A DNA stretch of 64,000 bases from the human T2T-CHM13v2.0 reference genome, Homo sapiens. The translations under genes were made by a program, and so were the position numbers. The notes beneath the pieces are model-generated. The model did no database searches. It was not told the DNA's origin and was given only the letters and a program-made list of their open reading frames with translations. Positions 12,139-27,841 of the stretch are shown piece by piece. The stretch lies in assembly GCF_009914755.1 (NCBI RefSeq), contig NC_060926.1; one strand, written 5' to 3'. How positions within the stretch are numbered: position 1 is the stretch's first letter; each line of letters begins with the position of its first letter.

Positions 12139-14269
12139 ATTTTTATTACACTATAAAATGGACAAAAATTTACAATATTGGTATTTGTTGTAGAGTAAAA
12201 TAAGAAAACTGATGGTTTCAGGATTTGATTTTTTTTAAAGTAGTAGGTGACCTGTACAGAAGTCCTATATGAGCTCATCATACGAGACTTACAAAAGACA
12301 TTAGGATGAAAAAATAAGTGTTTTATCCTTTATTGGCCACCAACTTTTACCTTCTAAAGAAGTTAGAGAAGCTGAGAATAGAACAGAAGAAGAGGATATG
12401 AGGGCCCACAGCACCCCAAGCCTAGGGAAAGTGGCTTTCAGTAAACAACATGGATAATAATAACATGCTTGTTTCCTGAAGTTTGGAAGGCAGAGGGGAT
12501 GAGTATTAGATCCACAGGCAGAGACAGAGAAATCTACATGGAGAGAATACATCTTGCTAGTTAGGCTTATAACAAAGCAAGTCACTGAAGTGGGATTGTC
12601 CAGAGCTCTGAGTTTGTCAAAGAAAAAAAAAGTGAGAATGTCTGTCATGAATCAGTTGTGCTCTGTACAAAGGGCAGAAGATTCCATCCAAACAAGGCAC
12701 TTGGTGGGCTGAAGGACCTAAGCACACAGAATGTGCCCTGCTGAATGTTTAGAAGCTACAGAAGGAGTAGTCCGTGGCCATACAGAAGGAAATATATTTG
12801 CCAGCATTAAGAGAACACTACATGTGTTCCCTGGTGGGGAAAGGTTTAAGAAGATCAACAAACATGCTCCTGTGTGAGAAAGAGTAACCAAACACCTGCT
12901 AAGCCCAGGGAGACTGAAACCAACTCACACCACCAATCAATTGGAACTTTCTGACACCGTTTGTTGCCTCCCATCACCATTTTCCCATCAGAACCATTAG
13001 ATAAGCCCACCTTTAAAACAAGTTCAATTTTTAAATTTACACCAGAAATGGATTGTTTATTATATTTAGGCTTTTCCTTTGGGGGTTGTTGGATTTAAGT
13101 CATCAGGCTTGTTGGTAGATATGTATCTACTTGTAACTTTATTTTTTACCATAATCATGTACCATTTTGTTTTCAAATATAGCTTTTAAAATATTGTAAA
13201 CATTGCCTGGAAAAAATGTGTAGCACTGCTTTACTATGTATGAGTTGGTTAGTCACACCATTCAAACACCCCTATGTCTTGTCTCTCAGTCAAATATTAA
13301 AAAAACAGTACACACACAGTTACTACTGGTGAAATATGTACATATGTTGAACACAATCTAATCATATTTATTAGAATCAGGCTAAATGTAATAGTTTTTA
13401 ATTTTTTGAATTAAATTTGTCAATTATTAAGTATTATCATTTAAATTATCTTATTTGATAGTAGCAACAGCCCTGTGGAAAACTGTATCCCTTTCTAGGC
13501 TTATAATTTGTTTGTTTCTATTCAGGGACCTAAAACTCAGAGATATTAGGGACTGTACAATGTTTGCTATTGTACTGTGTCCTTTTGATACGCAATGCAG
13601 ATTTCTATCTTCAAAAATTTTGCAATATTGCATTAACTGTATTAATGTGAAGTAAAACAATACTAAGGAAATGTATTGATTTTATTGTCATATTAAAAAT
13701 TAAGTGGTTATTATTATACATACCCACTCAGTTTTTGTGCATGTGTATACATATAGAGTATATTTATAGCAAAGACAATTCTTTAGGTTTTTAAAAATTG
13801 GTTTTGCTTTTTTCGTGTTGTCTTAACTTTGTATCATCATTTCAGTGCTCTTTTCATAAGATAACATCAGCTCTCCACAGAGGAATCCTAATGTAAGTTG
13901 TTCGTACAACAAAAATTTTATTTGGAGCAATCTGAAACTTGCATAGCAAAAGTGTGAATTCAGAAATAAGAAAATAGTTATCTTAAAGCTTGTATAAATT
14001 TGATATATTAAAGGGATCCTCATTCAGAAATTACTGATTCTTTGTTACTACAAATTATAATAACTGGTTTCCAGATTTTCTAAGCCATATTACATTTAAA
14101 GCACAAAATATAAATACTATTTGATAATTGTTTTATTAACTGAGTACTTATTGCTTAGTTGATACAGTTGAAGCCCTGTAGTAAGCTTCAAGTCTACAAA
14201 AACTTAGAACAGATGGCCCATGTCTTCAAATATCTTATATGTTTATAATTTCACATACACAAAATCTGT

Positions 14270-15056
14270 CAATCAGCATGCAGTTCCTCCATTCTGAACA
14301 CATAAAAACCACAGACTCAGCCAGACTCACTCACTCGATGGAATGACCTGCCTGCGGATAGGAGCTATACATTTCAGATCTTCTGAGAGCTGTTCTGTCA
14401 CTCAACAAATGTCCTCTCCACTTTGCTCACCCTCAAATTGTCTGCATACTTCATTCTTCCTTGATGTGAGACAGGAACTTGGGACTCTGAATGGCAGGAC
14501 TGAGAGAGTTGTGACAAAAACAGGCTGACACATATCCCCCACCACTTGCTACATTGCAGGTGACCAGAAGCAGAGAAGATCTACAGCCCTCCTGGGAGCC
14601 CAAACCTAGGGGTTCCCTGAGCCAGGGTTGTGACATGCTGTAACTATCTCTTTGGGGCTCTGTGGTTGTGGGTGTCTCTGAGCTTTTGGACACCACTATG
14701 TTCCACTCATCCAGATGTGGGTGCCTGCAGTGGAAGCCACTTGTGGTACAGCTGGTCCGACTGCAGCCTTGCACAGAGCCAGCACCTGTGCCAGTGCCTA
14801 GAGCTGCCCACCCCACAGCAGCAGCCAGCATGATAGACTGCGCACAGTGTCCAGACCCCATGCTGGCATGCTTAAACATGCCTCACCACTCTGTGCCTGG
14901 CTTGCCGTTGGCAGGTGTGGAATCCATGTCAGTAGTATGGGCTGAGCACAGCCTGCCAGGTCAAGTGGGAAGAACAAACCCACCAGCCCAAGTAAAGTCT
15001 TCCCCAGCTACAGAGGTTTCCAGCTGGTGAAGTAGCAGAGAACAAATGCTGTGTCA
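14270..15056 (+). mobile_element. MER52-like ERV1 LTR, 3' part
   Basis: caatcagcatgc...ctcagccagactc...gagagctgttctgtcactcaa...cagaggtttccagctgg...tgtgtca terminus, followed by cttc. Confidence 0.85.
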
Positions 15057-15214
15057 CTTCTATTACATTAGTCAAAGCCAGTCATGTGGAGAAACCTAGA
15101 TTCAAGGAGTGAAGACTCCACCTCCTGAAGAAAGAAGATGCAACATCAATTGCAAAAGGGCAGGCATACTGGCATAGGAAGAATTTGTGGTCACTTTTAT
15201 AATTTGCCTCAACA
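15057..15214 (-). mobile_element. MLT1 (F/G/H-like) LTR, 5' half
   Basis: Reverse complement reads ...gaccacaaattcttcc...gaggtggagtc...ccttgaatctagg...gctttgactaat, the MLT1 5' region. Confidence 0.75.
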
Positions 15215-16662
15215 GACTGTAGATGGAATAGAGTATTCCTTGGTCAGTTGGACTAGGTGACATGGAATGTCTTCTGCACCCTCCTGATTTGTCTTTTCAC
15301 TGAGTGTTCTGTTCTTTAATGGCAGAATCTTTCTCTTACTTTACTGTATCCTCATATTACTTAGTGCAGGGCTAGTCTTACCTCTTCTACACACACAGTG
15401 ATTGCTGACTTACCATAAATATTTCCCACAGTTTCAATTGAGCTATTTCTAAGAGAATGTGGTCAGAAAGATTTATAAAAGTTTACAGAAGTCCATAATA
15501 AAAAGTTTGATAATTTTTATATGAATCTCTGTTAGACTATTAGAATATAATAAAGGTAGAATATTATAGACCATCAATAAACTAGAACTTATGTGTAAAC
15601 TATTCACATTTAGACCTTATATGATGAAGGGACGCAGCAGAATGAAAGGGAGAAGTAGCTTCCTTCAAAAAAGAAAACAAAATATTTAAAAATACAAAAT
15701 TCTTTAGAGTTGATCAGAATTGAGAGATAAAGCTCTAATTCTCAGTAATAAGAGTTTCTTTCTTTTTGTTGACAGAGGATAAAGAGATGAGTGTACTTAG
15801 ATGGAACTCATATTGTCTGGGGACTTTCTGCAAAAGCCAGATGTGGCATGGAACCTCTCTGAATTACCACTTATGCAATATTACAACATATTGTCAGGGA
15901 ATGCTGTGCTACAAAATTAAAACAGTTTAAAAAATTCAGTAAGGAAAGATGCCAAGCATGCTTATGCTGAAGCCAAGGGTCACAAGGAAAAAAGATCAAA
16001 ACATAATGGCAGGTCAATCACTTATTTTTTTATTTAATCATTTGTTTATTGTTAATTCATATATTCCCTAATTCATCCAACCAATATTTATTGATAATCC
16101 ACAATATATGAGATATTAGAGATAAGGAGATCATAAAAGAACAAATAGCAAAAGCAAATAGACAATCATTCAACAAAACTACCGCTGACCTATGCTTTCA
16201 AGGAGGCAAACAAGAAAACAGATAAAAAATGTATCCATAGCAAAGACACATACTTAATTATATATTTTTGGACACGGATAATGCATGTAAGCTGTAGAAC
16301 AATACCTTTGTTTGTTGATTTGAAATGCATTTTTCTACTACAAGAGATGTCACTTTTTCTACATAATTTTTTTTAATTAATTTTTTTCAAATGCTTAGTT
16401 ATATGTTTTTAATACATCTCAAAGGAAAACAGAAATACCACAAGAAAAAAGCATTATGAACAGTGATCCTCAAGAATTTATAATCATTAGACATAACTCT
16501 AATGGGCAAAATTTTTACCCACATGGAAGTAACTTTAAGCAAGTCATTTGTTCTTGTTATGAAAAATCTGTTCTGGGTGATCTGAAAGAATCTTGGGTTT
16601 TGTGGTTAGGCTGCCTATTTAGAATTTAAATAAATGTTTTCACTCAACAGTATTGAATTTTA

Positions 16663-18493
16663 AGATAACAGACAGAGAGCCAAATCATGAGTGAACTTCA
16701 TTCACAATTGCTACCAAGAGAACAAAATACCTAGGAATACAACTTACGAGGGATGTGAAGGACCTCTTCAAGAAGAACTGCAAACCATTGCTCAAGGAAG
16801 TAAGAGAGAACACAAATAAATGGAAAAACATCCCATGCTTACGGATAGGAGGAATCAATATGAAAATGGCCATACTGCCGAAACAAATTTGTAGATTCAA
16901 TGCTATCCCCATTAAGCTACCATTGAATTTCCTCACAGAATTGAAAAAAAAAAAAAAAAAAAAAACTACTTTAAACTTCATTTGGAACCAAACAAGAGCC
17001 CACATAGCCAAGACAATCCTAAGCAAAAATAACAAAGCTGGAGACATCAAACTACCTGACTTCAAACTATACTACAAGGCTACAGTAACCAAAACAACAT
17101 GGTACTGCTACCAAAACAGATATGTAGACAAATGGAACAGAACAGAGGTCTCAGAAATAACACCATACATCTATAACCATGTGATCTTTGACAAACCTAA
17201 CAAAAACAAGCAATGGGGAAAGGATTCCCTATTTGATAACTGGTGTTAGGAAAACTGGCTAGCCATATGCAGAAAACTAAAACTGAACCCCTTCCTTACA
17301 TCTTATACAAAAATTAAGTCAACATGGATTAAAGACTTACATGTAAGACCTCAAACGACAAAAATCCTAGAGGAAAACCTAGGCAATACCATTCAGGACA
17401 TAGGCATGGGCAAAGACTTCACGTCTAAAACACCAAAAGCAATGGCAAAAAAAAGCCAAAATTGGCAAATAGGATCTAATTAAACTAACGCGCTTCTGCA
17501 CAGCAAAAGAAACTGTCATCAGAGTGAACAGGCAACCTACAGAATGGGAGAACATTTTTGCAATCTATCCATCTGACAAAGGGCTAATATCCAGAATCTA
17601 CAAAGAACTTAAACAAATTTACAAGAAAAAAAATAAACAACCCCATAAAAAGTGGGCAAAGGATATGAACAGACACTTCTCAAAAGAAGACATTTATGCA
17701 GCCAATAAACATGAAAAAAAGCCCATCATCACTGGTCATTATAGAAATGCAAATCAAAACCACAATGAGATACCATCTCATGCCAGTTAGAATGGCGATC
17801 ATTAAAATGTCAGGAAACAACTGATGCTGGAGAGGATGTGGAGAAATAGGAACGCTTTTACACTGTTGGTGAGAGTGTTAATTAGTTCAACCATTGTGGA
17901 AGACAGTGTGGCGATTCCTCACGGATCTAGAACTAGAAATACCATTTGACCCAGCAATCCCATTACTGGGTATATACCCAAAGGATTATAAATCATTCTA
18001 CTATAAAGACACATGCACACGTATGTTTATTGCAGCACTGTTCACAATAGCAAAGACTTGGAATGAACCCCAATGCCCATCAATGTTAGACTGGATAAAG
18101 AAAATGTGGCACATATACACCATGGAATACTATGCAGCTGTAAAAAAAGATGAGTTCATGTCCTTTGCAGGGACATGGATGAAGCTGGAAACCATCATTC
18201 TCAGCAAACTAACATAAGAACAGAAAACCAAAACCATATGTTCTCACTCATAAGTGGGAGTTTAACAATGAGAACACATGGACACAGTGAGGGGAACATC
18301 ACACACCGGGGCCTGTCAGGGACTGGGGGGCTAGGGAAGGGATAGCATTAGGAGAAATACCTAATGTAGATGATGAGTTGATGGGTGCAGCAAACCACCA
18401 TGGCACGTGTATATGTATGTAACAAAACTGCACGTTCTGCACATGTACCCTATAACTTAAAGTATAGTAAAAAATAAAATAACAAAATAAAAT
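16663..18493 (+). mobile_element. 5'-truncated L1PA (about PA7/PA8), ORF2 C-terminus plus 3' UTR
   Basis: ORFs 16755-17249, 17524-17790 and 17894-18217 are frameshifted L1 ORF2p pieces (e.g. [26 protein letters not shown]); 3' UTR and A-rich tail are present. Confidence 0.96.
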
Positions 18494-18930
18494 ATACACA
18501 CAAAAGAAGCAATTTAGGTAAACTTTTCAATGTTGTTTATACATTGTGTAACTATTACAAATTTAAGATTAAGATAATTAAGAGGATATTAAGAAGGTAA
18601 TTTCCATCACTCTGTACATACTCTTTGTGTGACTTCACAGTCTCTAGAAATTACATTTGCCTTTTCTAGAGTTTCATATAAATGGGTTCACAAAATATAC
18701 ACTCTGGTCTATGGCTCCTTCACTCAGCATGTTTCAGAAATTCATCCATGTTGTTGTTATCATTCACTACCTCCATTATTCAGCACATTCAGTTGCTTAT
18801 AGTTTTGGGATATTAATCCTCCTATGGACTTTTATGTATTATTCTTTGTTTAGACATATGTTTTCACTTCTCTTGCATAAATATTTTAATAGATTTTCTC
18901 TGTGTGTGTAGTTGTATCTCATTGTGACTG

Positions 18931-19056
18931 TAAGTTGTATTTCTGTGATGACTAATGACAAGGAATTTTTTAATAAATTGTATAAAAAATTGTTGTATTT
19001 CTGTGATGTATAAGTTGTATTTCTGTGATGACTAATGACAAGGAATTTTTTTAATA
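18931..19056. repeat. Local ~45-bp duplication with a partial third copy
   Basis: taagttgtatttctgtgatgactaatgacaaggaattttt at 18931 and 19011; gttgtatttctgtgatg at 18992. Confidence 0.9.
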
Positions 19057-19753
19057 TGCTTATTTGCTGTATCTTTTGTAAAGTGTCTTTTCAAATATTT
19101 TTTCACAGTTTTAAATGGGATTGATTGTCCCATAATTGAGTTGTAATTTTTTAAATTAAAATCTTTTATTATATGCACATATGCACACACACTTATGTAG
19201 CAAATATCAAAATATGCAAACTATTGCAACTACTTTTTCCAGATTGTGGTTTTTCTTTTTATATTTTTTTGGTGTTATACAAAGAGAAAATGTTCTTAAT
19301 TCTAATACAGTCCTATTCATCAATCTATTTATTTTATGATTTGCACATTTTATGTCCTGAGCATATATGACTACCTCCAAGATCATAAACATCATTTCCT
19401 ATATATTCTTCTAGAAGTTTTATAGTTTTAGATTTAGGTATGAGTATATTATCCATGTTGAATTGATATGTATGGCATTATTTAAGGATTGAGTTTTATT
19501 TTCAGGTGGATATTCAGTTGTTCCAGTAACATTTGATAGAAAGGCTTATGATTTCCAATTGAGTAACTTTGGCATCTTTTTGGAAAATCAATTGCACATA
19601 CATATATACATCTATTCCGGGAATCTTTTTCTGTGCCCTTGTCAATGCTTGTTTCAATAAACACTTTTTTGCTTGGTGTAGTTTTATAATAAGTCTTAAA
19701 GTTAAGTAGTGTGACTCTTATTTTGTTTTTCTTATTTAAAATCACTTTGACTA

Positions 19754-19920
19754 ACCAGTCTTGGTGGCATACACATGTAGTCCCAGCTGCTCAAGAGTCT
19801 GAGGCAAGGGAATCCCTTGAGCCCAGGAGTCTGAGGTGGCAGTGCACTATGATTCCACCTGTGAATAGCCAGTGCACCCCAGACAGGGCAATATAATGTG
19901 GGACTGTCTCTTAGAAACAA
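19754..19920 (+). mobile_element. FAM (fossil Alu monomer)
   Basis: Monomer retaining the 7SL-derived segment gtgcactatgat...cctgtgaatagccagtgcac; flanked by a tttgacta repeat. Confidence 0.85.
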
Positions 19921-20351
19921 ATGATTTGACTATTACAAGTCCTTTGCATTTCTACATTTATTTTATAATAGCTTGTCAATGTCTCAAAATAGACTGCTGA
20001 AGTATTTTCTGAGTTTGTATGAATTGATAGGTCAAACTGAGGAAGTGTGCCATTTTAGAAATATTGAGTTTTCTAAGCTTGGTACATGATATTTCTCTTA
20101 ATTTACTTATATCTTAATTTCTCTCAGCAATGTTTTCAAGTTTTATTATAAAGGTTTTACACAAGTAGTGTTAATTTATCTATATGCATTTAATTTTTAA
20201 TTGTATGTTTCATTAATGTTTTAATTTGAATTTCCATTTTTAAAAATTATTGAAAATAGACATACAATTGATATTTTGTGACCTGGTATCCTAAAACCCT
20301 ACTAAATGCAGTTTTGAATTCTATTAGAATTGTTTTGTAGATTTCTTAGTG

Positions 20352-20573
20352 TTTTTTTTCTTTCTTTCTTTCTTTTTCTTTTGTTTTTGATGGAGTTTCG
20401 CTCTTGTTCCCCAGGCTGGAGTGGTGCAGGGGCATGGTCTTGGCTCACTGCACTCACTGCAACCTCCACCTCCCAAGTTCAAGCAATTCTCCTGCCTCAG
20501 CCTCCTGAGTAGCTGGGAGTACAGATACGCCACCACACCTGGCTAATTTTTGTATTTTTAGTAGAGACAGGGC
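20352..20573 (-). mobile_element. AluS, 5'-truncated
   Basis: Antisense right arm plus the middle A-rich linker. Confidence 0.9.
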
Positions 20574-20790
20574 TTTGTCTGCAAATAATGTCAGTTTTGT
20601 TTCTTTCTTTACAACTTGTTTGATGTTGATTCATTTCTCTTATTTTATTATGCTGATTAGGATCTCAAATATGGCATTTGATAGAAAAGGTAAAAATGAG
20701 CATCCTTTCCTTTTTTCTGACCTTAGAAAGTATTTGGACTTTCACAATAAATACAATATTAACTGTAGTTTTTTGTTTATTTGTGTTTTT

Positions 20791-21092
20791 GCTTTTATTT
20801 TTTGTTTTTTGAGACAGAGTCTTGCTCTGTCTCCCAGGCTGGAGTGCGGTGGTGTGATCTTGGCTCACAGCAACCTCCTCTTCCTAGGTTCAAGCGATTC
20901 TCCTGCCTCAGCCTCCTGAGCAGCTGGGACTACAGGTGCCCGCCATCATGCCCAGCTAATTTTTGTATTTTTAGTAGAGACGGGATTTCGCCATGTTGGC
21001 CAGGCTAGTCTTGAACTCCTGACCTCAGGTGATCCTCCCGCCTCGGCATCCCAAAGTGCTGGGATTAAATGCGTGAGCCACCACGCCCAGCC
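20791..21092 (-). mobile_element. AluSx-like
   Basis: Full dimer; flanked by a tatttgtgt repeat. Confidence 0.93.
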
Positions 21093-21685
21093 TATTTGTG
21101 TGTTTTTGTTTTGTTTTTGTAGTTGCCTTTTACCAGGTTAAGGCAGCTCCCTTTCATCCTTTCTTTCCTGTTTTCTCAGAGGTTTGTTTGCTTTTTTATG
21201 AATGGGCGTCGAATTTTGTCAATTTTTTTTTTTGCATCTTTTGGGATCCTACAGTCTTTTATTAGTCTGTTATAAGTGATATTTCATTGATTGTTTTTTC
21301 AATGTTGACTCGGCCTTGCATTCCTGAAGTATATACCATTCGGTCATGGTGAATCTTTTTACATAATGCTGGATTCAGTCTGCTTATATTTTAGGGATCG
21401 TTGCCTCTATGTTCACAGTATGTGTTTCTGTAGTTTTCTTGTGATGTCTTTGTTGGGTTTTAATATCGGGTTTTAGCTTTGTGAAAAGTTGGGAATTATT
21501 CCTCTTGCTCTATTTTCTGAAGGTTTAGTAGATTCAGTATTCAAAAAATATTTGATTGAATTCATCTGTGAAACAATCTAGGCTTAATATTCATTGGTTG
21601 GTTTTGTTCTTCTGTCTATGTCAGGGGACATGGTTAATTACTATTTCAATTTTAAAAATATATGCAGAGTTGTTAAGATTTTAAT

Positions 21686-21984
21686 TTTTCTTTCTTTTAT
21701 TTTGAGACAGGGTCTCACTCTGTGGCCCAGGCTGGAGTGCATTGGTGTAATCTTGGCTCACTGTAACCTCAAATTCCTGGGCTCAAGCGATCTTCCCACC
21801 TCAGCCTCCGGAGTAGTGGGGACTGCAGGCGCACACCACCGTGCCAGGGTAATTTTTGTATATTTTGTAGAGACGGGGTTTTGCCATGTTGCCCAGCCTA
21901 GTCTCGAATTCCTGGGCTCAAGCAACCCATCTGCCTCAGCCTCCCAAAGTGCTGGAGTACAGGAGTGAGCTACTCCACCTGGTC
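21686..21984 (-). mobile_element. AluJ
   Basis: Full dimer with J diagnostics (cctgggctcaagcgatc); aatttttctt flanking repeat. Confidence 0.9.
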
Positions 21985-22261
21985 AATTTTTCTTAATTCA
22001 GTTTTGTTAAACCATGCTCTTCACTGAATTTGCCTACTCTAAGTTGTCAGATGTATTGAGATAAATATTTTCATAAAATCCTCTTATTGTGATATCAGTG
22101 TGTAAAATCTCAGTGAGGTTTTTTCATTCCTAATGTTGCTACATTTTATCTTCTGCCTTTTCATTTTGTTTCAATTCATTGAAGTTTTATTGTTATTCTT
22201 GCTTTTGTGTGCCGTTTTTAGTTTCTATTGCTTACGTTTTCTAGTTCATTGATTCCTGTTA

Positions 22262-22279
22262 ACACACACACACACACAA

Positions 22280-22318
<39 letters not shown>
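22262..22318. repeat. (CA)n microsatellite
   Basis: Interrupted CA run. Confidence 0.95.
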
Positions 22319-22320
<2 letters not shown>

Positions 22321-22325
22321 GCACA

Positions 22326-22755
22326 CAGAGTTGATCTTGAACAACATGGGTTTGAACTGCATGAGTTCACTTACATACCAATATTGTTCAGCCTCTGCCA
22401 CTCCTGAGACAGCAAGACCAACCCTTCCTCTTACTCCTCCTCCTTAGCCTACTCAATGTGTAGATGAGAATGAAGAACTTCATGATGGTCCATGCTTCAA
22501 TTTAATTAATATGTTGTCTTATGATTTTCTTTATAATACTTTCTTTTCTCTGGTTTACTTTATTATAAGAATACAATATATAATGCATATAATGTACAAA
22601 TAATGTGTAATCAGCTGTTGATGTTATTGGTAAGGTTTCTGGTAAACAGTAGATTATTAGTAGTTAAATTTCTGGGGAGTCAAAAGTTACACACAGATTT
22701 TCACTTGAGGGAGGGAGCCTGGCTCCTCTAATACCTGAATTGTTCAAAGGTCAAA

Positions 22756-22759
<4 letters not shown>
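22326..22759 (+). mobile_element. Tigger2a-like (TcMar-Tigger) MITE
   Basis: Terminal inverted repeats (gttgatcttgaacaa ... ttgttcaaaggtcaa) and internal cctgagacagcaagaccaaccc. Confidence 0.88.

Positions 22760-22796
<37 letters not shown>
22758..22796. repeat. (TG)n microsatellite
   Basis: Uninterrupted TG run. Confidence 0.97.
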
Positions 22797-22798
<2 letters not shown>

Positions 22799-24679
22799 TT
22801 ATAATTTTATTTTTTAAACTTTTTTAAATTTGCTTTTCTGTTTCTAATTTGTTAAAATGGAAGTTTAAATCATTTAATTTAGAATTTTATTTTTTTCTAA
22901 TGTAACTTTTTGAAGTTACAATTTCCCACTAAGCACTAATTTAACAGCTAAATTATGTTATGCTATGTTATGTTTTCATTATCATTCAGTCAAAATATTT
23001 TCTAATTTCCCTCATGATTTTTTCCTTTGGTCCATGGTTTATTTAGTAGTGAACTGTATAATTTCCAAAGACCTTTGGCTTTTCCATGTGCCTTATTGTT
23101 GTTGCTTTCTGATTCAATTCTTACATAATTAGAGAACATATTCTATGTTATTTTAATCTTTTTAAATTTATGGAGAATGGTATTTTTCTATTTCTCCTTT
23201 TAGGTATGCTAATTTTAGCTACATGCAATTAAAAACTCTTTTATAGCATATTCAGAACCTAGAATTGTGTATCCATCTAGTCTATATCTCCTTTTGTCAG
23301 TAAGAAATTTCCCACTCTGTGGTTAGTAATAATTCTTTTTCTAAAGTCTACTTTGTGTTATACTAGTATAGGCATTTCAGCTATACTATTGGTTAGTGTT
23401 TGCACCATCTTGTTCTATTTGTTTACCTTTAGATTATGTGTAATTTTATATTCAAACCACCTTTTATGTAGTCAGCTGGTTGGGTCTTGCTTTTTTATTT
23501 AGTTTGTTAATATATGTCTTTTAACTAGAATGCTTAGATGATTTTATTTAGTGCAATTATTGATATGATTTGATTTATAACTAACATCAGATTATTTGCT
23601 TTCTCTTCATCCCATCTGTTCTTTGTTTCTTTTATTTTCTTGACCAAAGGATTAATTTAATATCTTTAAGATTGTATTTGATCTCTACCATTAACTTATT
23701 ACTTGTAGCTTTCTTTTCTTCTGGTTGCTCTGATTTTAAAGAAATCCACCTTTAACTTTTAACATTTGCCTTCGAATGACATTATACTACTTTCCCTGTA
23801 ATGGACTTTCAAATCCTCCTCTGATTTTTAGACTATTGACTTTTCAATACGTTATAAGCTGCATAATACACTGTTATTATAATTGCTTCTAAAACTGAGT
23901 GATCTTTTAAAATAATTTTAATATGAGAAACGTATTATATACTTACCAGCGCATTTATTGTATCCCACACTGTAATTCTTTTGTATAGACCCAGGTTTCC
24001 AACTGATAACACATTCCCTTTTATTTAAAGAACTTCATTTGATGTATTTTTTTGTGGCTTAGATTTGTTGTCAATGGCCTCTTGCCTTTTGTTTGTCTGA
24101 TTCACCCTCATTTTTACAAGAGATGTTGACAAGCTATAGAATTATAGTTTAATTTTATTATTTCAGCACTTTAAAAATATCATTCCATGTCTTCTTATTT
24201 AATAGTTTTCAGTCATTCTTATTTTTATTTCTCTGTACAGAAACAAAGCCGTTTTTAAGATTTTTGTCTTTATTATTGGTTTTCACCAATTTGAATGTAA
24301 ATGCGCTTTGGTGTGGTTTTCTTTATGTTTCATCTTAGACTTCATCAAACTTCTTGGATCTATAGTTTCACAGTTTTCACCAAATATTTCAGCCATTGTT
24401 TCTTTAAGTATTTCTCTGCTCCTTCTTCCTTTCTGAAACTCAATTACACATTCCGAATGGCTTCACATATTCTTATATCCTACTTCCACAAATTATGTTT
24501 ACTTTTGTTGTTGTGTGGTCTTTTTTTTCCTAGCATTTCATTGTCAATAATTATTATTGCCCCATCTTCAACTTTGCTGAACTTTTCTTTTGAACTATTT
24601 AATCTGCTGTTAATACAACTTTTTAATTTTTAATTTTTGAAATTTCAGATATTGTATTTTTATTTCAATAAAATAAAAT

Positions 24680-25468
24680 GAGTGGGTAGCTCCTATCTGC
24701 AGGCAAGTCGTCTCGTTGAGTGAGTGACTCTGGCTGAGGCTGGGGTCTTATGTGCTCAGAGTGGAAGTGCATACTGATTAGTCCATGGGTGGCCAACAGT
24801 GGGCCTGGAAAAACCACCATTCAATTGGCCGAAATGTCATCAATGAAGTTCTCACTCTGGGCGTGGACTTCACTGGAACTGGCGGCCTGGCCCCCAGGCT
24901 TCAGGAGGTTGCTGGCTTAAAGGAGGAGTTTCACCAGGGTCCCACCCCTTTCCATCAAGGAGCCTGTCTGCTTCCCGCAGCGGCCATCAGTATGCTGTCC
25001 ACAGCGCCCCGCCCCTGCTGATGGGCGCCTGCAGGCCTGCCCTGCCTCTCTCCAATGCTTGTCAGTGCCGGGGCCAAGGCAGCAGGGGGCTGGTGTGTCA
25101 GTGCCGCCTCAAGCACACGCACACCCAGCTGGGTGACAGCAGCACTCGCGCTCAGCCACAGCTTTGCTTCCTAATGGAGCTGGTGCTGTGAGCAGAGAGA
25201 GACCAGGGAGCAGGAGCCAGCACTTCTGAACCTATGGGGGCAGGGGACTTCCTGGGTCCCCGAGAGCACAGGGATGCCCGGGTCCAGAGCTGTAGCTGGG
25301 TGAGTGCAGCTGTGCCCAGGCTGCCTCCAGCCCTACCAACTCAATAGGGGGCAAGGCTTCTGCTGGGATTACTTGTTCTTGGCCCCCAACCAGCTCCGTG
25401 GTGGCGCCTCCCCCACAGCAGCCGGCATCTTTGCAGCGGCTGCTCCAGACGGGCTGAAGCTGTCACCA
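24680..25468 (-). mobile_element. MER52-like ERV1 LTR, 5' part (GC-rich)
   Basis: Minus strand begins tggtgacagc...ccgtctggagcagccgctgc; the 5' flank in element orientation is cttc. Confidence 0.85.
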
Positions 25469-26159
<691 letters not shown>

Positions 26160-26659
26160 AATAGAAAAGAGTCAAAAATCTCGATTGTCTATGCATTTCC
26201 AGTTAAATATTTAAGAAACATTTATAGAGCCTAAATTCTTATAAGCTCACCTCAATTTAATAAATATGTATCAAGTGCTTATTTTTACCTAGAAAATAAA
26301 GTCATAAAGGCAGATAAGTACCAAGCATTCTATTTACATTAATATAACATGAACAATCCATCATTTTATGAACTATGTTTCCAAATATATTCTAATATGA
26401 TTTTCAAAGTCACTATCCGTGTTAAAGATCTGCATGAGACCCCAGTGAAAATGTTTAAGTAGCTCATGGCTTTGGAAGAGAGGAGGTAGAACACATGATG
26501 TATTGAAGATATTCTTCCAGTAGGACAGAATTTCCATTTCATGTTTGCATTGTTTAAACATAGTGTGCACTAAATACAGAGTGCATTATTACTATTGTTT
26601 TCCCCTCATTAATAAGCAAAATTATCTTGTAAGAAATTGGAAAAGCTGTAAAGAATGCA

Positions 26660-27490
26660 AGTGTGCCAGATTGTGCTCAGTGAAGCCCCACCATCACCTC
26701 TTTCTGGGTTCTTCTTGGTATCACAGGAGAGAAGCCAGGAATGTTAATTCTCAAAATCCCTTGTACTTTAGATTCAGCTAATGAGTCGCTAGAATGCTAT
26801 TTAGAAACAAGTGAGAAAGAAACGCTCTTCCCCCACAGAAGCTGCAGGCCGCTTGTAATAGTCACGTTGGATTCCTTGACTTACTGGAGTCCTCTCTGTT
26901 GGCAAGCAACAGAAATCATACCTATTGCTTGTAGGAAACTAAAAACATAGACGGTGGCTTCTCTTGGCTTCCAGGGACCTCCTGAAGAACATCCACTTTA
27001 GTCCTGGGAGCAGATGGTATCACCAACTACCTCTGATCCCTGTACTTCTACATTTCTTAAAGGCAGATTCCTAACCTTTACATCCCCAGCCCTCCAAATG
27101 ACTGTATGAATTTCTAGTTCCATATATTAAATCTCTATCCAATAAAATTACCTATTATGCTTTTATTCCTGAAATACTTCAACTGATAATTTTTGTAACT
27201 GCAAATGATTCCAGGAAAATAGAGCCCCTCCACAATGACTGTGGGACTAGATTCTCAAATTCAGTTTGAAATGAAGGCAGAAATGACCACAACACCCGCA
27301 GAGAATGGGGCATATAACTACTTATAATATCACGGAATATAGTTACTTATAATTTCCCCTGTATTTACTTAGAAAGGAGAATCTATTGAAGGCAAGGTAT
27401 AGAAAGAGCACATGTTGTTAAAACAGAATGTTATAAAGTATATATTAAGTGAGCTGCTTCTTACTGCTCTGAAGAGCTTGGAGAAGAAAG
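26660..27490 (+). mobile_element. Old ERVL LTR (LTR33-like) plus the start of internal sequence
   Basis: LTR 3' end-like region around 27100-27190 followed by ERVL-internal-like sequence; highly decayed. Confidence 0.4.
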
Positions 27491-27841
27491 AAATGACATG
27501 GAGTTCTGTAACTTCTTGACCACATGTAGATCTACCGAGTCTCATGACTAATGTTAGAACTTGCAGGTAAGAAATATGAAAATTTTGGGAACATGAGAAT
27601 TCAGAAGTTTAAGTAAGTGATAAAAATTACAACTTTTTTAAAAAACAGAGGATTGACCAGTCTTGCCTGAAATAGAGACAGCAAATTCTGATTCATGTTT
27701 TGCCTCTGTTACTAATAGTTGCTGTATGCCCTTGAACAAATTACTCAATCATCCTGTGCCTATTCAAAGGAAGTACAGAGATGAAGCTGGAGAAGTCCTC
27801 CTTTGAGCTCATAACAGAGAGCTTAAAATGAGTGAAAGCTT

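What the first reader, a model, noticed from the sequence alone, without database searches (positions are those of the whole stretch)
14270..25472. ~10.4-kb inversion recorded by a split MER52-like LTR and its split MLT1 host
Seen: the 3' part of a MER52-like LTR lies on + (14270-15056) and the 5' part on - (24680-25468). In element orientation both outer flanks read CTTC (15057-15060 cttc; 25469-25472 gaag). The flanking sequences are the 5' half (minus strand, 15057-15214) and the 3' half (plus strand, 25469-26159) of an MLT1 LTR, which join colinearly across that TSD. Established: ERV1 insertions typically leave 4-bp TSDs. Inference: flipping 14270-24679 restores one ERV1 insertion inside one MLT1, so this segment was inverted after the ERV1 insertion.
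Basis: partly seen in the sequence, partly recalled or inferred. Interest (0 to 1): 0.8.

Follow-up and report, generated by a model that had tools for sequence, protein, structure and literature searches.

The report
Old 10-kb inversion splitting a retroviral LTR
A 10.4-kb stretch of human chromosome 2 was flipped tens of millions of years ago, cutting an old retroviral LTR in two and leaving about 100 bases of it copied at both ends of the flipped piece; it is a clean example of a known kind of event, not a new one.

Summary
14270-15056 (+) and 24680-25468 (-) are the 3' and 5' parts of one ~1.5-kb TG...CA LTR of a dispersed family. Both outer ends carry CTTC. The sequences beyond them are two halves of one older LTR-like repeat: in 6 of 6 genomic copies that match both halves, the halves abut within 2 nt at that CTTC. 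An inversion of 14270-24679 after the LTR insertion is the best reading (about 0.9).

The pieces overlap by about 100 bp (14270-14375 versus 24780-24680, inverted, 84% identical). This stretch occurs once in intact copies, and the two copies here are sisters in a tree. That is the footprint of a staggered break filled in before rejoining (Ranz 2007 model). Loss of a provirus interior by a three-break event is not excluded.

Arm divergence (K2P 0.19) suggests roughly 25-60 Myr under the staggered-break reading.

Not testable here: the names MER52 and MLT1, the outer junction, and the state in other primates. The outer junction has unique DNA on one side and an old repeat ending at the break on the other.

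It is an ordinary, fixed-looking event inside a lncRNA intron: a new member of a known kind, of low to moderate interest.

The parts
14270..15056 (+). 3' part of the split LTR (about family position 690 to the end), now at the left end of the inverted segment
   Evidence: Ends ...tgtgtca|cttc. 53 genome matches. Maps to 1501-2292 of the intact copy L002. LTR homology starts exactly at 14270.
14270..14375 (+). Left arm of the ~100-bp inverted duplication. It holds conserved CCAAT-like and ATAAAA-like motifs; the motif names are my reading, not tested.
   Evidence: Over 14271-14367 versus the reverse complement of 24687-24779: 78 matches, 15 mismatches, 4 gap columns. The limits come from the family alignment.
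15057..15060 (.). Target-site duplication copy (cttc) at the LTR 3' end
15057..15214 (-).
   Evidence: Aligns to L013 and L014. nhmmer hits 29 of 30 loci.
15215..24679 (.). Remainder of the inverted segment: unique DNA, L1-like pieces, three Alu-like blocks and a small DNA-transposon-like element
   Evidence: Repeat families, masked stretches in the hub table, sequence
24100..24679 (-). Old interspersed repeat (L1 ORF1-like from memory only) whose detectable homology reaches within about 16-29 nt of the junction at 24679
   Evidence: nhmmer matches q16-578 in 6 or more loci. Genome search found 40 matches to 24248-24451. Pfam gave no relevant family; one sub-threshold chance match (SID-1_RNA_chan) among 16 ORF fragments.
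24680..24780 (-). Right arm of the ~100-bp inverted duplication, outside the inverted segment
   Evidence: (pair I2)
24680..25468 (-). 5' part of the split LTR (family positions 1 to about 789). It lies within the two RefSeq enhancer features 24542-25156 and 25157-25770.
   Evidence: The reverse complement starts cttc|tggtgacagc. Maps to 780-1604 of L002. 22 CpG, observed/expected 0.30. Enhancer features are from the hub table.
25469..25472 (.). Target-site duplication copy (gaag, the reverse complement of cttc) at the LTR 5' end
25469..25801 (+). 3' half of the older LTR-like host repeat, first block
   Evidence: nhmmer hits in 6 loci, colinear with the 5' half
25802..26105 (-). Alu-like insertion inside the host repeat, with an exact 12-nt TSD aataaatgctta at 25790-25801 and 26106-26117
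   Evidence: Sequence; Alu-like repeat families D1-D5
26118..26165 (+). Tail of the host repeat after the Alu; its end is approximate
   Evidence: Weak local alignments to L046 and L062

Best explanation
One solo LTR of a class-I-type endogenous retrovirus family (TG...CA ends, 4-bp TSD, about 1.5 kb) inserted in minus orientation into an older MaLR-like LTR. Later, a two-break inversion flipped what is now 14270-24679.

One break lay in or beside an old L1-like repeat. The other lay inside the LTR and was staggered by about 100 nt. Both overhangs were filled in before non-homologous end joining, so the same ~100 bp of LTR now sits at both ends of the inverted segment in opposite orientation (14270-14375 and 24680-24780).

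Shown: the split, the shared TSD, the colinear host halves, the overlap, and the fact that the overlap is single-copy in the family. Inferred: the order of events, the staggered-break mechanism, an age of roughly 25-60 Myr, and fixation.
For: (1) The two pieces map to 780-1604 and 1501-2292 of the intact copy L002, and likewise in L003 and L010. In 8 of 9 copies both pieces cover the same ~100-bp place.

(2) The first ~57 nt of the overlap occurs once in 9 of 9 copies. Only its last ~40 nt is a tandem unit, in 5 of 9. An internal repeat of the family therefore cannot explain the overlap.

(3) The arms are 84% identical over 93 ungapped sites, K2P 0.187. They are sisters in an ML tree of 25 sequences, with local support 0.89 and stem 0.035.

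(4) CTTC lies at both outer ends. Of the 4 other copies whose two ends could be placed, one has an exact 4-bp TSD (L004), two match 3 of 4, and one has none.

(5) The host-repeat halves abut within 2 nt at the TSD in 6 of 6 loci that match both halves.

(6) None of the top 40 genomic hits of the LTR form a pair within proviral distance (one search list, my reading). The family today is therefore essentially solo LTRs.

(7) The staggered-break model predicts exactly this pattern. [quoted passage not shown] The model has also been applied to human sex-chromosome inversions (PMC2817401, passages).

(8) One RefSeq enhancer feature (24542-25156) spans the 24679|24680 junction without a break (hub table). 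I infer that the same arrangement is in the GRCh reference.
Against: The outer junction is unsupported. The left flank 13700-14269 matches nothing and shows no significant similarity to the upstream extension of the repeat that ends at 24679. In that test 0 of 6 loci were clearly above shuffles, and the best had 14 of 300 shuffles as good.

Arm L is closer to another copy, L042 (K2P 0.135), than to arm R (0.187). Only 1 position is shared exclusively by the arms (2 if one other copy is allowed), which ranks 7th of 300 pairs. The evidence for a shared history beyond family membership is therefore thin over about 95 sites.

The overlap alone does not separate a staggered break from two LTRs of one provirus or from a replication template switch. 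No orthologue from another species was available.
Confidence: 0.6

Rival explanations
1. The site once held a full provirus (LTR-interior-LTR). The left arm comes from the 3' LTR and the right arm from the 5' LTR. One complex event with three breaks, or an inversion followed by a deletion, removed the interior and the inner parts of both LTRs.
For: Two LTRs of one provirus would also give overlapping, sister-like pieces sharing one TSD. The arm distance (K2P 0.187) lies within the range of between-copy distances: 12.6% of 253 other pairs are closer. So it does not prove that the duplication is younger than the insertion.
Against: It needs one more break or one more event. No interior sequence is left at either junction; LTR homology stops exactly at 14270 and 24680. 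None of the top 40 hits of the family are paired.
Confidence: 0.15
2. The inversion with its inverted duplication arose by replication template switching (a FoSTeS/MMBIR-like event), not by breakage, fill-in and end joining.
For: Template switching can give inversions flanked by inverted duplicated stretches. The present structure is compatible with that.
Against: No microhomology or templated filler can be read at either junction, although decay since the event could have erased it. No extra copied segments were found: the two LTR pieces hit the window only at themselves and at each other's arm.
Confidence: 0.12
3. Not a simple inversion. A smaller block (the LTR 3' part plus the host 5' half plus some flank) was cut out and re-inserted upside down about 9 kb away, a three-break event, while most of 15215-24679 kept its orientation.
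For: Only the LTR-side breakpoint has independent support. The adjacency of 14269 to the reverse complement of 24679 could not be confirmed.
Against: It needs a third novel junction inside 15215-24679, and none was seen. Simple inversion needs fewer breaks.
Confidence: 0.07
4. A 100-bp inverted copy of the LTR segment already lay 10 kb away, and homologous recombination between the two copies flipped the interval.
For: Inverted repeats do mediate inversions. The arms are inverted repeats at the ends of the segment (pair I2).
Against: It needs an unexplained earlier copying of just 100 bp, and 100 bp is a short substrate. It is two events where one suffices, the same parsimony argument made in PMC2817401.
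Confidence: 0.03
5. There was no rearrangement: two independent truncated LTR insertions, and a chance resemblance of the flanks.
For: None beyond the fact that truncated LTR fragments are common.
Against: There is the shared CTTC, the host halves are colinear to the base in 6 of 6 copies, and the arms are sisters.
Confidence: 0.01

Closest known systems
Staggered-break (isochromatid or chromatid) inversions with inverted duplications at the breakpoints (Ranz et al. 2007, PLoS Biol, PMC1885836)
   Same: A unique-in-place sequence is present in inverted orientation at both ends of the inverted segment. Only one of the two breakpoints is duplicated, as in 12 of the Drosophila inversions with duplications. 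The duplication length of about 100 bp is inside the reported 46 bp to 1.9 kb range (passages).
   Different: The lineage is human or primate, not Drosophila. The duplicated piece is part of a transposable element, not a gene. The ancestral state is inferred from split repeats, not seen in a sister species.
Inversion footprints with inverted duplicates on the human sex chromosomes (Lemaitre et al. 2009, PMC2817401)
   Same: Old human inversions are inferred from inverted duplicates at their ends, and divergence between the duplicates is used for dating (passages).
   Different: Those duplicates are tens of kb and the inversions span megabases. Here the duplicate is about 100 bp and the inversion is 10.4 kb, on an autosome and inside a lncRNA intron.
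Inversions by recombination between inverted repeats (NAHR; L1- or Alu-mediated human-chimpanzee inversions, PMC2603318, search listing only)
   Same: Transposable-element sequence lies at both ends in inverted orientation.
   Different: NAHR leaves two full-length chimeric repeats. Here each copy is truncated exactly at the shared 100 bp, and together they make one LTR with one TSD.

Membership tests
   The element starts TGGTGACAGC and ends GCTGTGTCA. Other copies start TGATGGCAG and end ...TGTGACA.
   CTTC at both ends here. Of the 4 other copies whose two ends could be placed (9 copies examined), L004 has exact TCAT, L002 and L010 match 3 of 4, and L003 has none.
   53 matches, 1540 first-look candidates. 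Unit length is 1457-1598 bp in 7 copies.
No repeat library is held. No paired LTRs occur among the top 40 hits, so no interior could be examined.
   29 of 30 loci are hit by the 5' half. 6 are hit by both halves, and in 6 of 6 they are colinear and abut within 2 nt.
   No library is held. The 3' end of the element is uncertain (about 26155-26165), so a TSD could not be read reliably. The MLT1-like tail motif is recalled from memory only.
Staggered-break inversion | The same sequence lies in inverted orientation at both ends of the inverted segment, one copy inside and one outside | tested here: met
   14270-14375 (inside) and 24680-24780 (outside).
Staggered-break inversion | The duplicated sequence was single-copy before the event | tested here: met
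   It occurs at one place in intact family copies; the first ~57 nt occurs once in 9 of 9. This is shown for the family, not for the ancestral locus itself.
Staggered-break inversion | The ancestral, uninverted arrangement is seen in an outgroup | not testable with these tools
   No primate or other mammalian genome is held besides the window's own.

The most novel reading that the evidence does not exclude
The ~100-bp overlap is a true staggered-break footprint. It gives both the mechanism and an outgroup-free date for the inversion, from arm divergence. Split transposable elements whose two pieces overlap in inverted orientation would then be a minable class. Such a class could yield the stagger-length spectrum and the timing of non-homologous inversions along the human lineage from a single genome.

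A side effect here is that each LTR half kept its own copy of the LTR's CCAAT/ATAAAA-like core. The half that kept the upstream part is the one annotated as an enhancer, and it retains 22 CpGs against 5 in the other half.
Probability: 0.5. Interest if true: 0.35.

Novelty: new member of a known kind. Interest (0 to 1): 0.25.

Why it matters
The case shows that a small ancient inversion can be proved from one genome alone by nested split repeats: an LTR inside an older LTR, sharing one TSD. The breakpoints can also still carry a readable mechanistic signature, a ~100-bp inverted duplication, after tens of millions of years.

For this locus the consequence is modest. The event lies in an intron of LINC00276. 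It separated the upstream part of an LTR from its downstream part, and the upstream part now overlaps two RefSeq enhancer features. Nothing here suggests a phenotype or a polymorphism.

Tried and rejected
(1) Own-genome DNA searches with the host 3' half and with the left flank 13770-14269 found only themselves. The word-based first look is too insensitive for old repeats, so I fetched copies with a better-preserved copy as query and used nhmmer locally.

(2) A DNA alignment as a genome query was not accepted.

(3) I tried to confirm the outer junction with a split repeat. The repeat at 24100-24679 ends at the junction. The left flank showed no significant match to the upstream extension seen in other copies. 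The result is inconclusive.

(4) Pfam naming of the L1-like pieces failed. Of 16 stop-free fragments, 15 matched no family and one gave only a sub-threshold chance match (E 0.007, 15.4 bits against a cut-off of 28.7). 'L1-like' therefore rests on memory.

(5) I tried to separate a staggered break from a provirus origin by shared derived states and by distances. The roughly 95 sites are too few to decide.

(6) A TSD for the host repeat was read by eye only. Its 3' end is uncertain, so I dropped it.

(7) Earlier findings of this scan were not open.

(8) Literature. No paper on an inversion here appeared in the listings for MER52 plus inversion (5 papers, neither term in any title or abstract), for microinversions or for LINC00276 (27 papers, 10 listed). 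These are listings only. Inversion catalogues and their supplements were not read.

I mapped each piece separately onto intact copies instead, which answers the same question.
Full report
THE OBSERVATION

The window is human chr2 (T2T-CHM13), inside an intron of LINC00276 (hub table).

- 14270-15056 on the plus strand ends ...gctgtgtca and is followed by cttc.
- The reverse complement of 24680-25468 starts tggtgacagc and is preceded by cttc.
- A search of the window's own genome with 14270-15056 gave 53 matches, from 1540 first-look candidates of which 40 were scored. Full-length matches were 70-75% identical; short upstream partial matches reached 89%.
- In local BLAST against 9 fetched copies, both pieces hit the same unit. 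In L002 the 5' piece maps to 780-1604 and the 3' piece to 1501-2292, with the same pattern in L003 and L010.
- The unit starts with TG, ends with CA, and is 1457-1598 bp long in 7 copies. Of the 4 other copies whose two ends could be placed, one has an exact 4-bp TSD (L004, TCAT), two match 3 of 4 (L002, L010) and one has none (L003).
- Alignment with family copies shows that LTR homology begins exactly at 14270 and ends exactly at 24680.

THE HOST REPEAT

Direct genome searches with the two flanks were nearly blind: one search found only itself, and one search found two copies. I therefore used one of those copies as the query and fetched 30 loci.

With nhmmer, 29 of 30 loci were hit by the 5' half (reverse complement of 15057-15214) and 6 by both halves. 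In all 6 the halves are on the same strand and meet within 2 nt once the 4-nt TSD is counted in both. L045, L046 and L056 are exact. L062 is off by 2 and L067 by 1. L065 fits by extrapolation. L065 and L067 are weak, with E about 0.01.

The other 23 loci matched only the 5' half. They may be truncated, or they may belong to related subfamilies. They say nothing for or against colinearity.

The host's 3' half is interrupted by an Alu-like insertion at 25802-26105 with an exact 12-nt TSD.

The LTR pieces overlap. 14271-14367 aligns with the reverse complement of 24687-24779 with 78 matches, 15 mismatches (12 transitions, 3 transversions) and 4 gap columns. With the family alignment the shared stretch is 14270-14375 versus 24780-24680. 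The repeat finder had flagged its core as the second-longest inverted pair in 13000-27500 (pair I2).

In 8 of 9 intact copies both pieces cover one and the same place. The ninth, L009, has a small deletion there.

The family does have a variable tandem array of a ~70-bp unit in this region, seen in 5 of 9 copies. That array involves only the last ~40 nt of the overlap. The first ~57 nt occurs once in 9 of 9 copies. The overlap is therefore a real duplication at this locus, not an internal repeat of the LTR.

In an ML tree of the two arms plus 23 other copies, the arms are sisters, with local support 0.89 and stem length 0.035. Against that, arm L is nearer by distance to L042 (0.135) than to arm R (0.187). 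Only 1 position is exclusive to the pair, or 2 if one other copy is allowed, which ranks 7th of 300 pairs. With about 95 sites this evidence is weak.

MECHANISM

The pattern is one sequence in inverted orientation at both ends of an inverted segment, with one copy inside and one outside. That is what the staggered-break model predicts. Two nicks about 100 nt apart give overhangs, these are filled in, and the segment is rejoined upside down.

Ranz et al. 2007 found such duplications for 17 of 29 Drosophila inversions. [quoted passage not shown] Lemaitre et al. 2009 used the same model and the same parsimony argument for human Y inversions (PMC2817401, passages read).

The second breakpoint here shows no duplication. 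I saw no inverted similarity between 14170-14269 and 24580-24679 (one search list; my reading).

RIVALS

- Provirus. A full provirus whose two LTRs each lost their inner part together with the interior would give the same picture. It needs a third break or a second event. No interior sequence is left at either junction, and none of the top 40 family hits are paired. The arm distance cannot exclude it, because 12.6% of 253 pairs of unrelated copies are closer than the arms.
- Template switching cannot be told apart from breakage at this age.
- Inverted transposition of a smaller block stays possible, because the outer junction has no independent support.
- NAHR between pre-existing inverted copies needs an unexplained earlier 100-bp copy.
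- Independent insertions are excluded.

THE OUTER JUNCTION

13770-14269 is unique in the genome search, and 13700-14269 matched nothing among 235 kb of fetched DNA.

The inner side, 24100-24679 on the minus strand, is an old interspersed repeat whose homology reaches within about 16-29 nt of the junction. From memory it looks like the start of L1 ORF1. Pfam did not confirm this: of 16 fragments, 15 had no hit and one gave only a sub-threshold chance match.

Some copies of that repeat extend at least about 95 nt further. The left flank has no significant similarity to that extension. The repeat is therefore either naturally truncated next to the break, or sequence was lost there. I cannot tell which.

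AGE

The K2P distance between the arms is 0.187 over 92 sites, or about 0.09 per arm. The standard error on the total is about 0.05 by my own calculation.

Using substitution levels for dated primate repeats that I recall from memory, this suggests roughly 25-60 Myr. That is long after the LTR family's activity: terminal branches of family copies are 0.13-0.26 under GTR+gamma, and 0.24-0.25 for this copy. This dating holds only under the staggered-break reading. Under the provirus rival the arms date the integration, and the inversion could be younger.

One RefSeq enhancer feature spans the 24679|24680 junction (hub table). I take that as a hint that the GRCh reference has the same arrangement.

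COMPARISON AND VERDICT

This is a real, well-recorded, small ancient inversion with a readable breakpoint footprint. It is a new example of a known kind. No paper naming it appeared in the search listings, but inversion catalogues and their supplements were not read. The names MER52 and MLT1, the orthologous state in other species, and polymorphism remain untested here.

Noticed in passing
window 24680-25468 versus 14270-15056: The two halves of the split LTR have decayed differently at CpG sites. The 5' piece has 22 CpGs (observed/expected 0.30) and the 3' piece has 5 (0.09). In 7 intact copies the two parts are much more alike. The CpG-rich half lies within the two RefSeq enhancer features 24542-25156 and 25157-25770.
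   Followed up: partly
window 14270-14375 and 24680-24780; loci L002-L044: The duplicated ~100 bp carries a CCAATCAG motif and, about 35 nt later, a CATAAAAACC motif. Both are conserved in most of the 23 other copies (alignment). They look like the LTR's CCAAT and TATA boxes, so each half may have kept a copy of the core promoter. This is my reading and was not tested.
   Followed up: no
loci L004-L008, e.g. L005:1075-1528: This LTR family has a variable tandem array of a ~70-bp unit just downstream of the putative promoter, with up to about 6 units in L005 and one in L002, L003 and L010. The inversion break in the LTR fell at the edge of this array region.
   Followed up: partly
window 22259-22817: An (AC)n run at 22262-22318 and a (TG)n run at 22758-22796 flank a ~440-bp element in mirror fashion. 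The ends of that element look like terminal inverted repeats of a small DNA transposon; the family is recalled from memory and was not tested. The two microsatellites seem to have grown out of the CACA/TGTG ends.
   Followed up: no
window 17716-17773 and 18914-18971; 18931-19051: Two L1-like fragments in opposite orientation carry the same ORF2-like stretch (58 nt, 72% complementary). Next to it is a perfect 41-nt direct repeat 80 nt apart (I4 and D14). This is probably a younger L1 beside an older one, but a second small rearrangement was not excluded.
   Followed up: no
window 25790-26117: An Alu-like insertion (25802-26105, minus strand) sits inside the host repeat with an exact 12-nt target-site duplication, aataaatgctta, on the host's polyadenylation-signal-like motif.
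   Followed up: no
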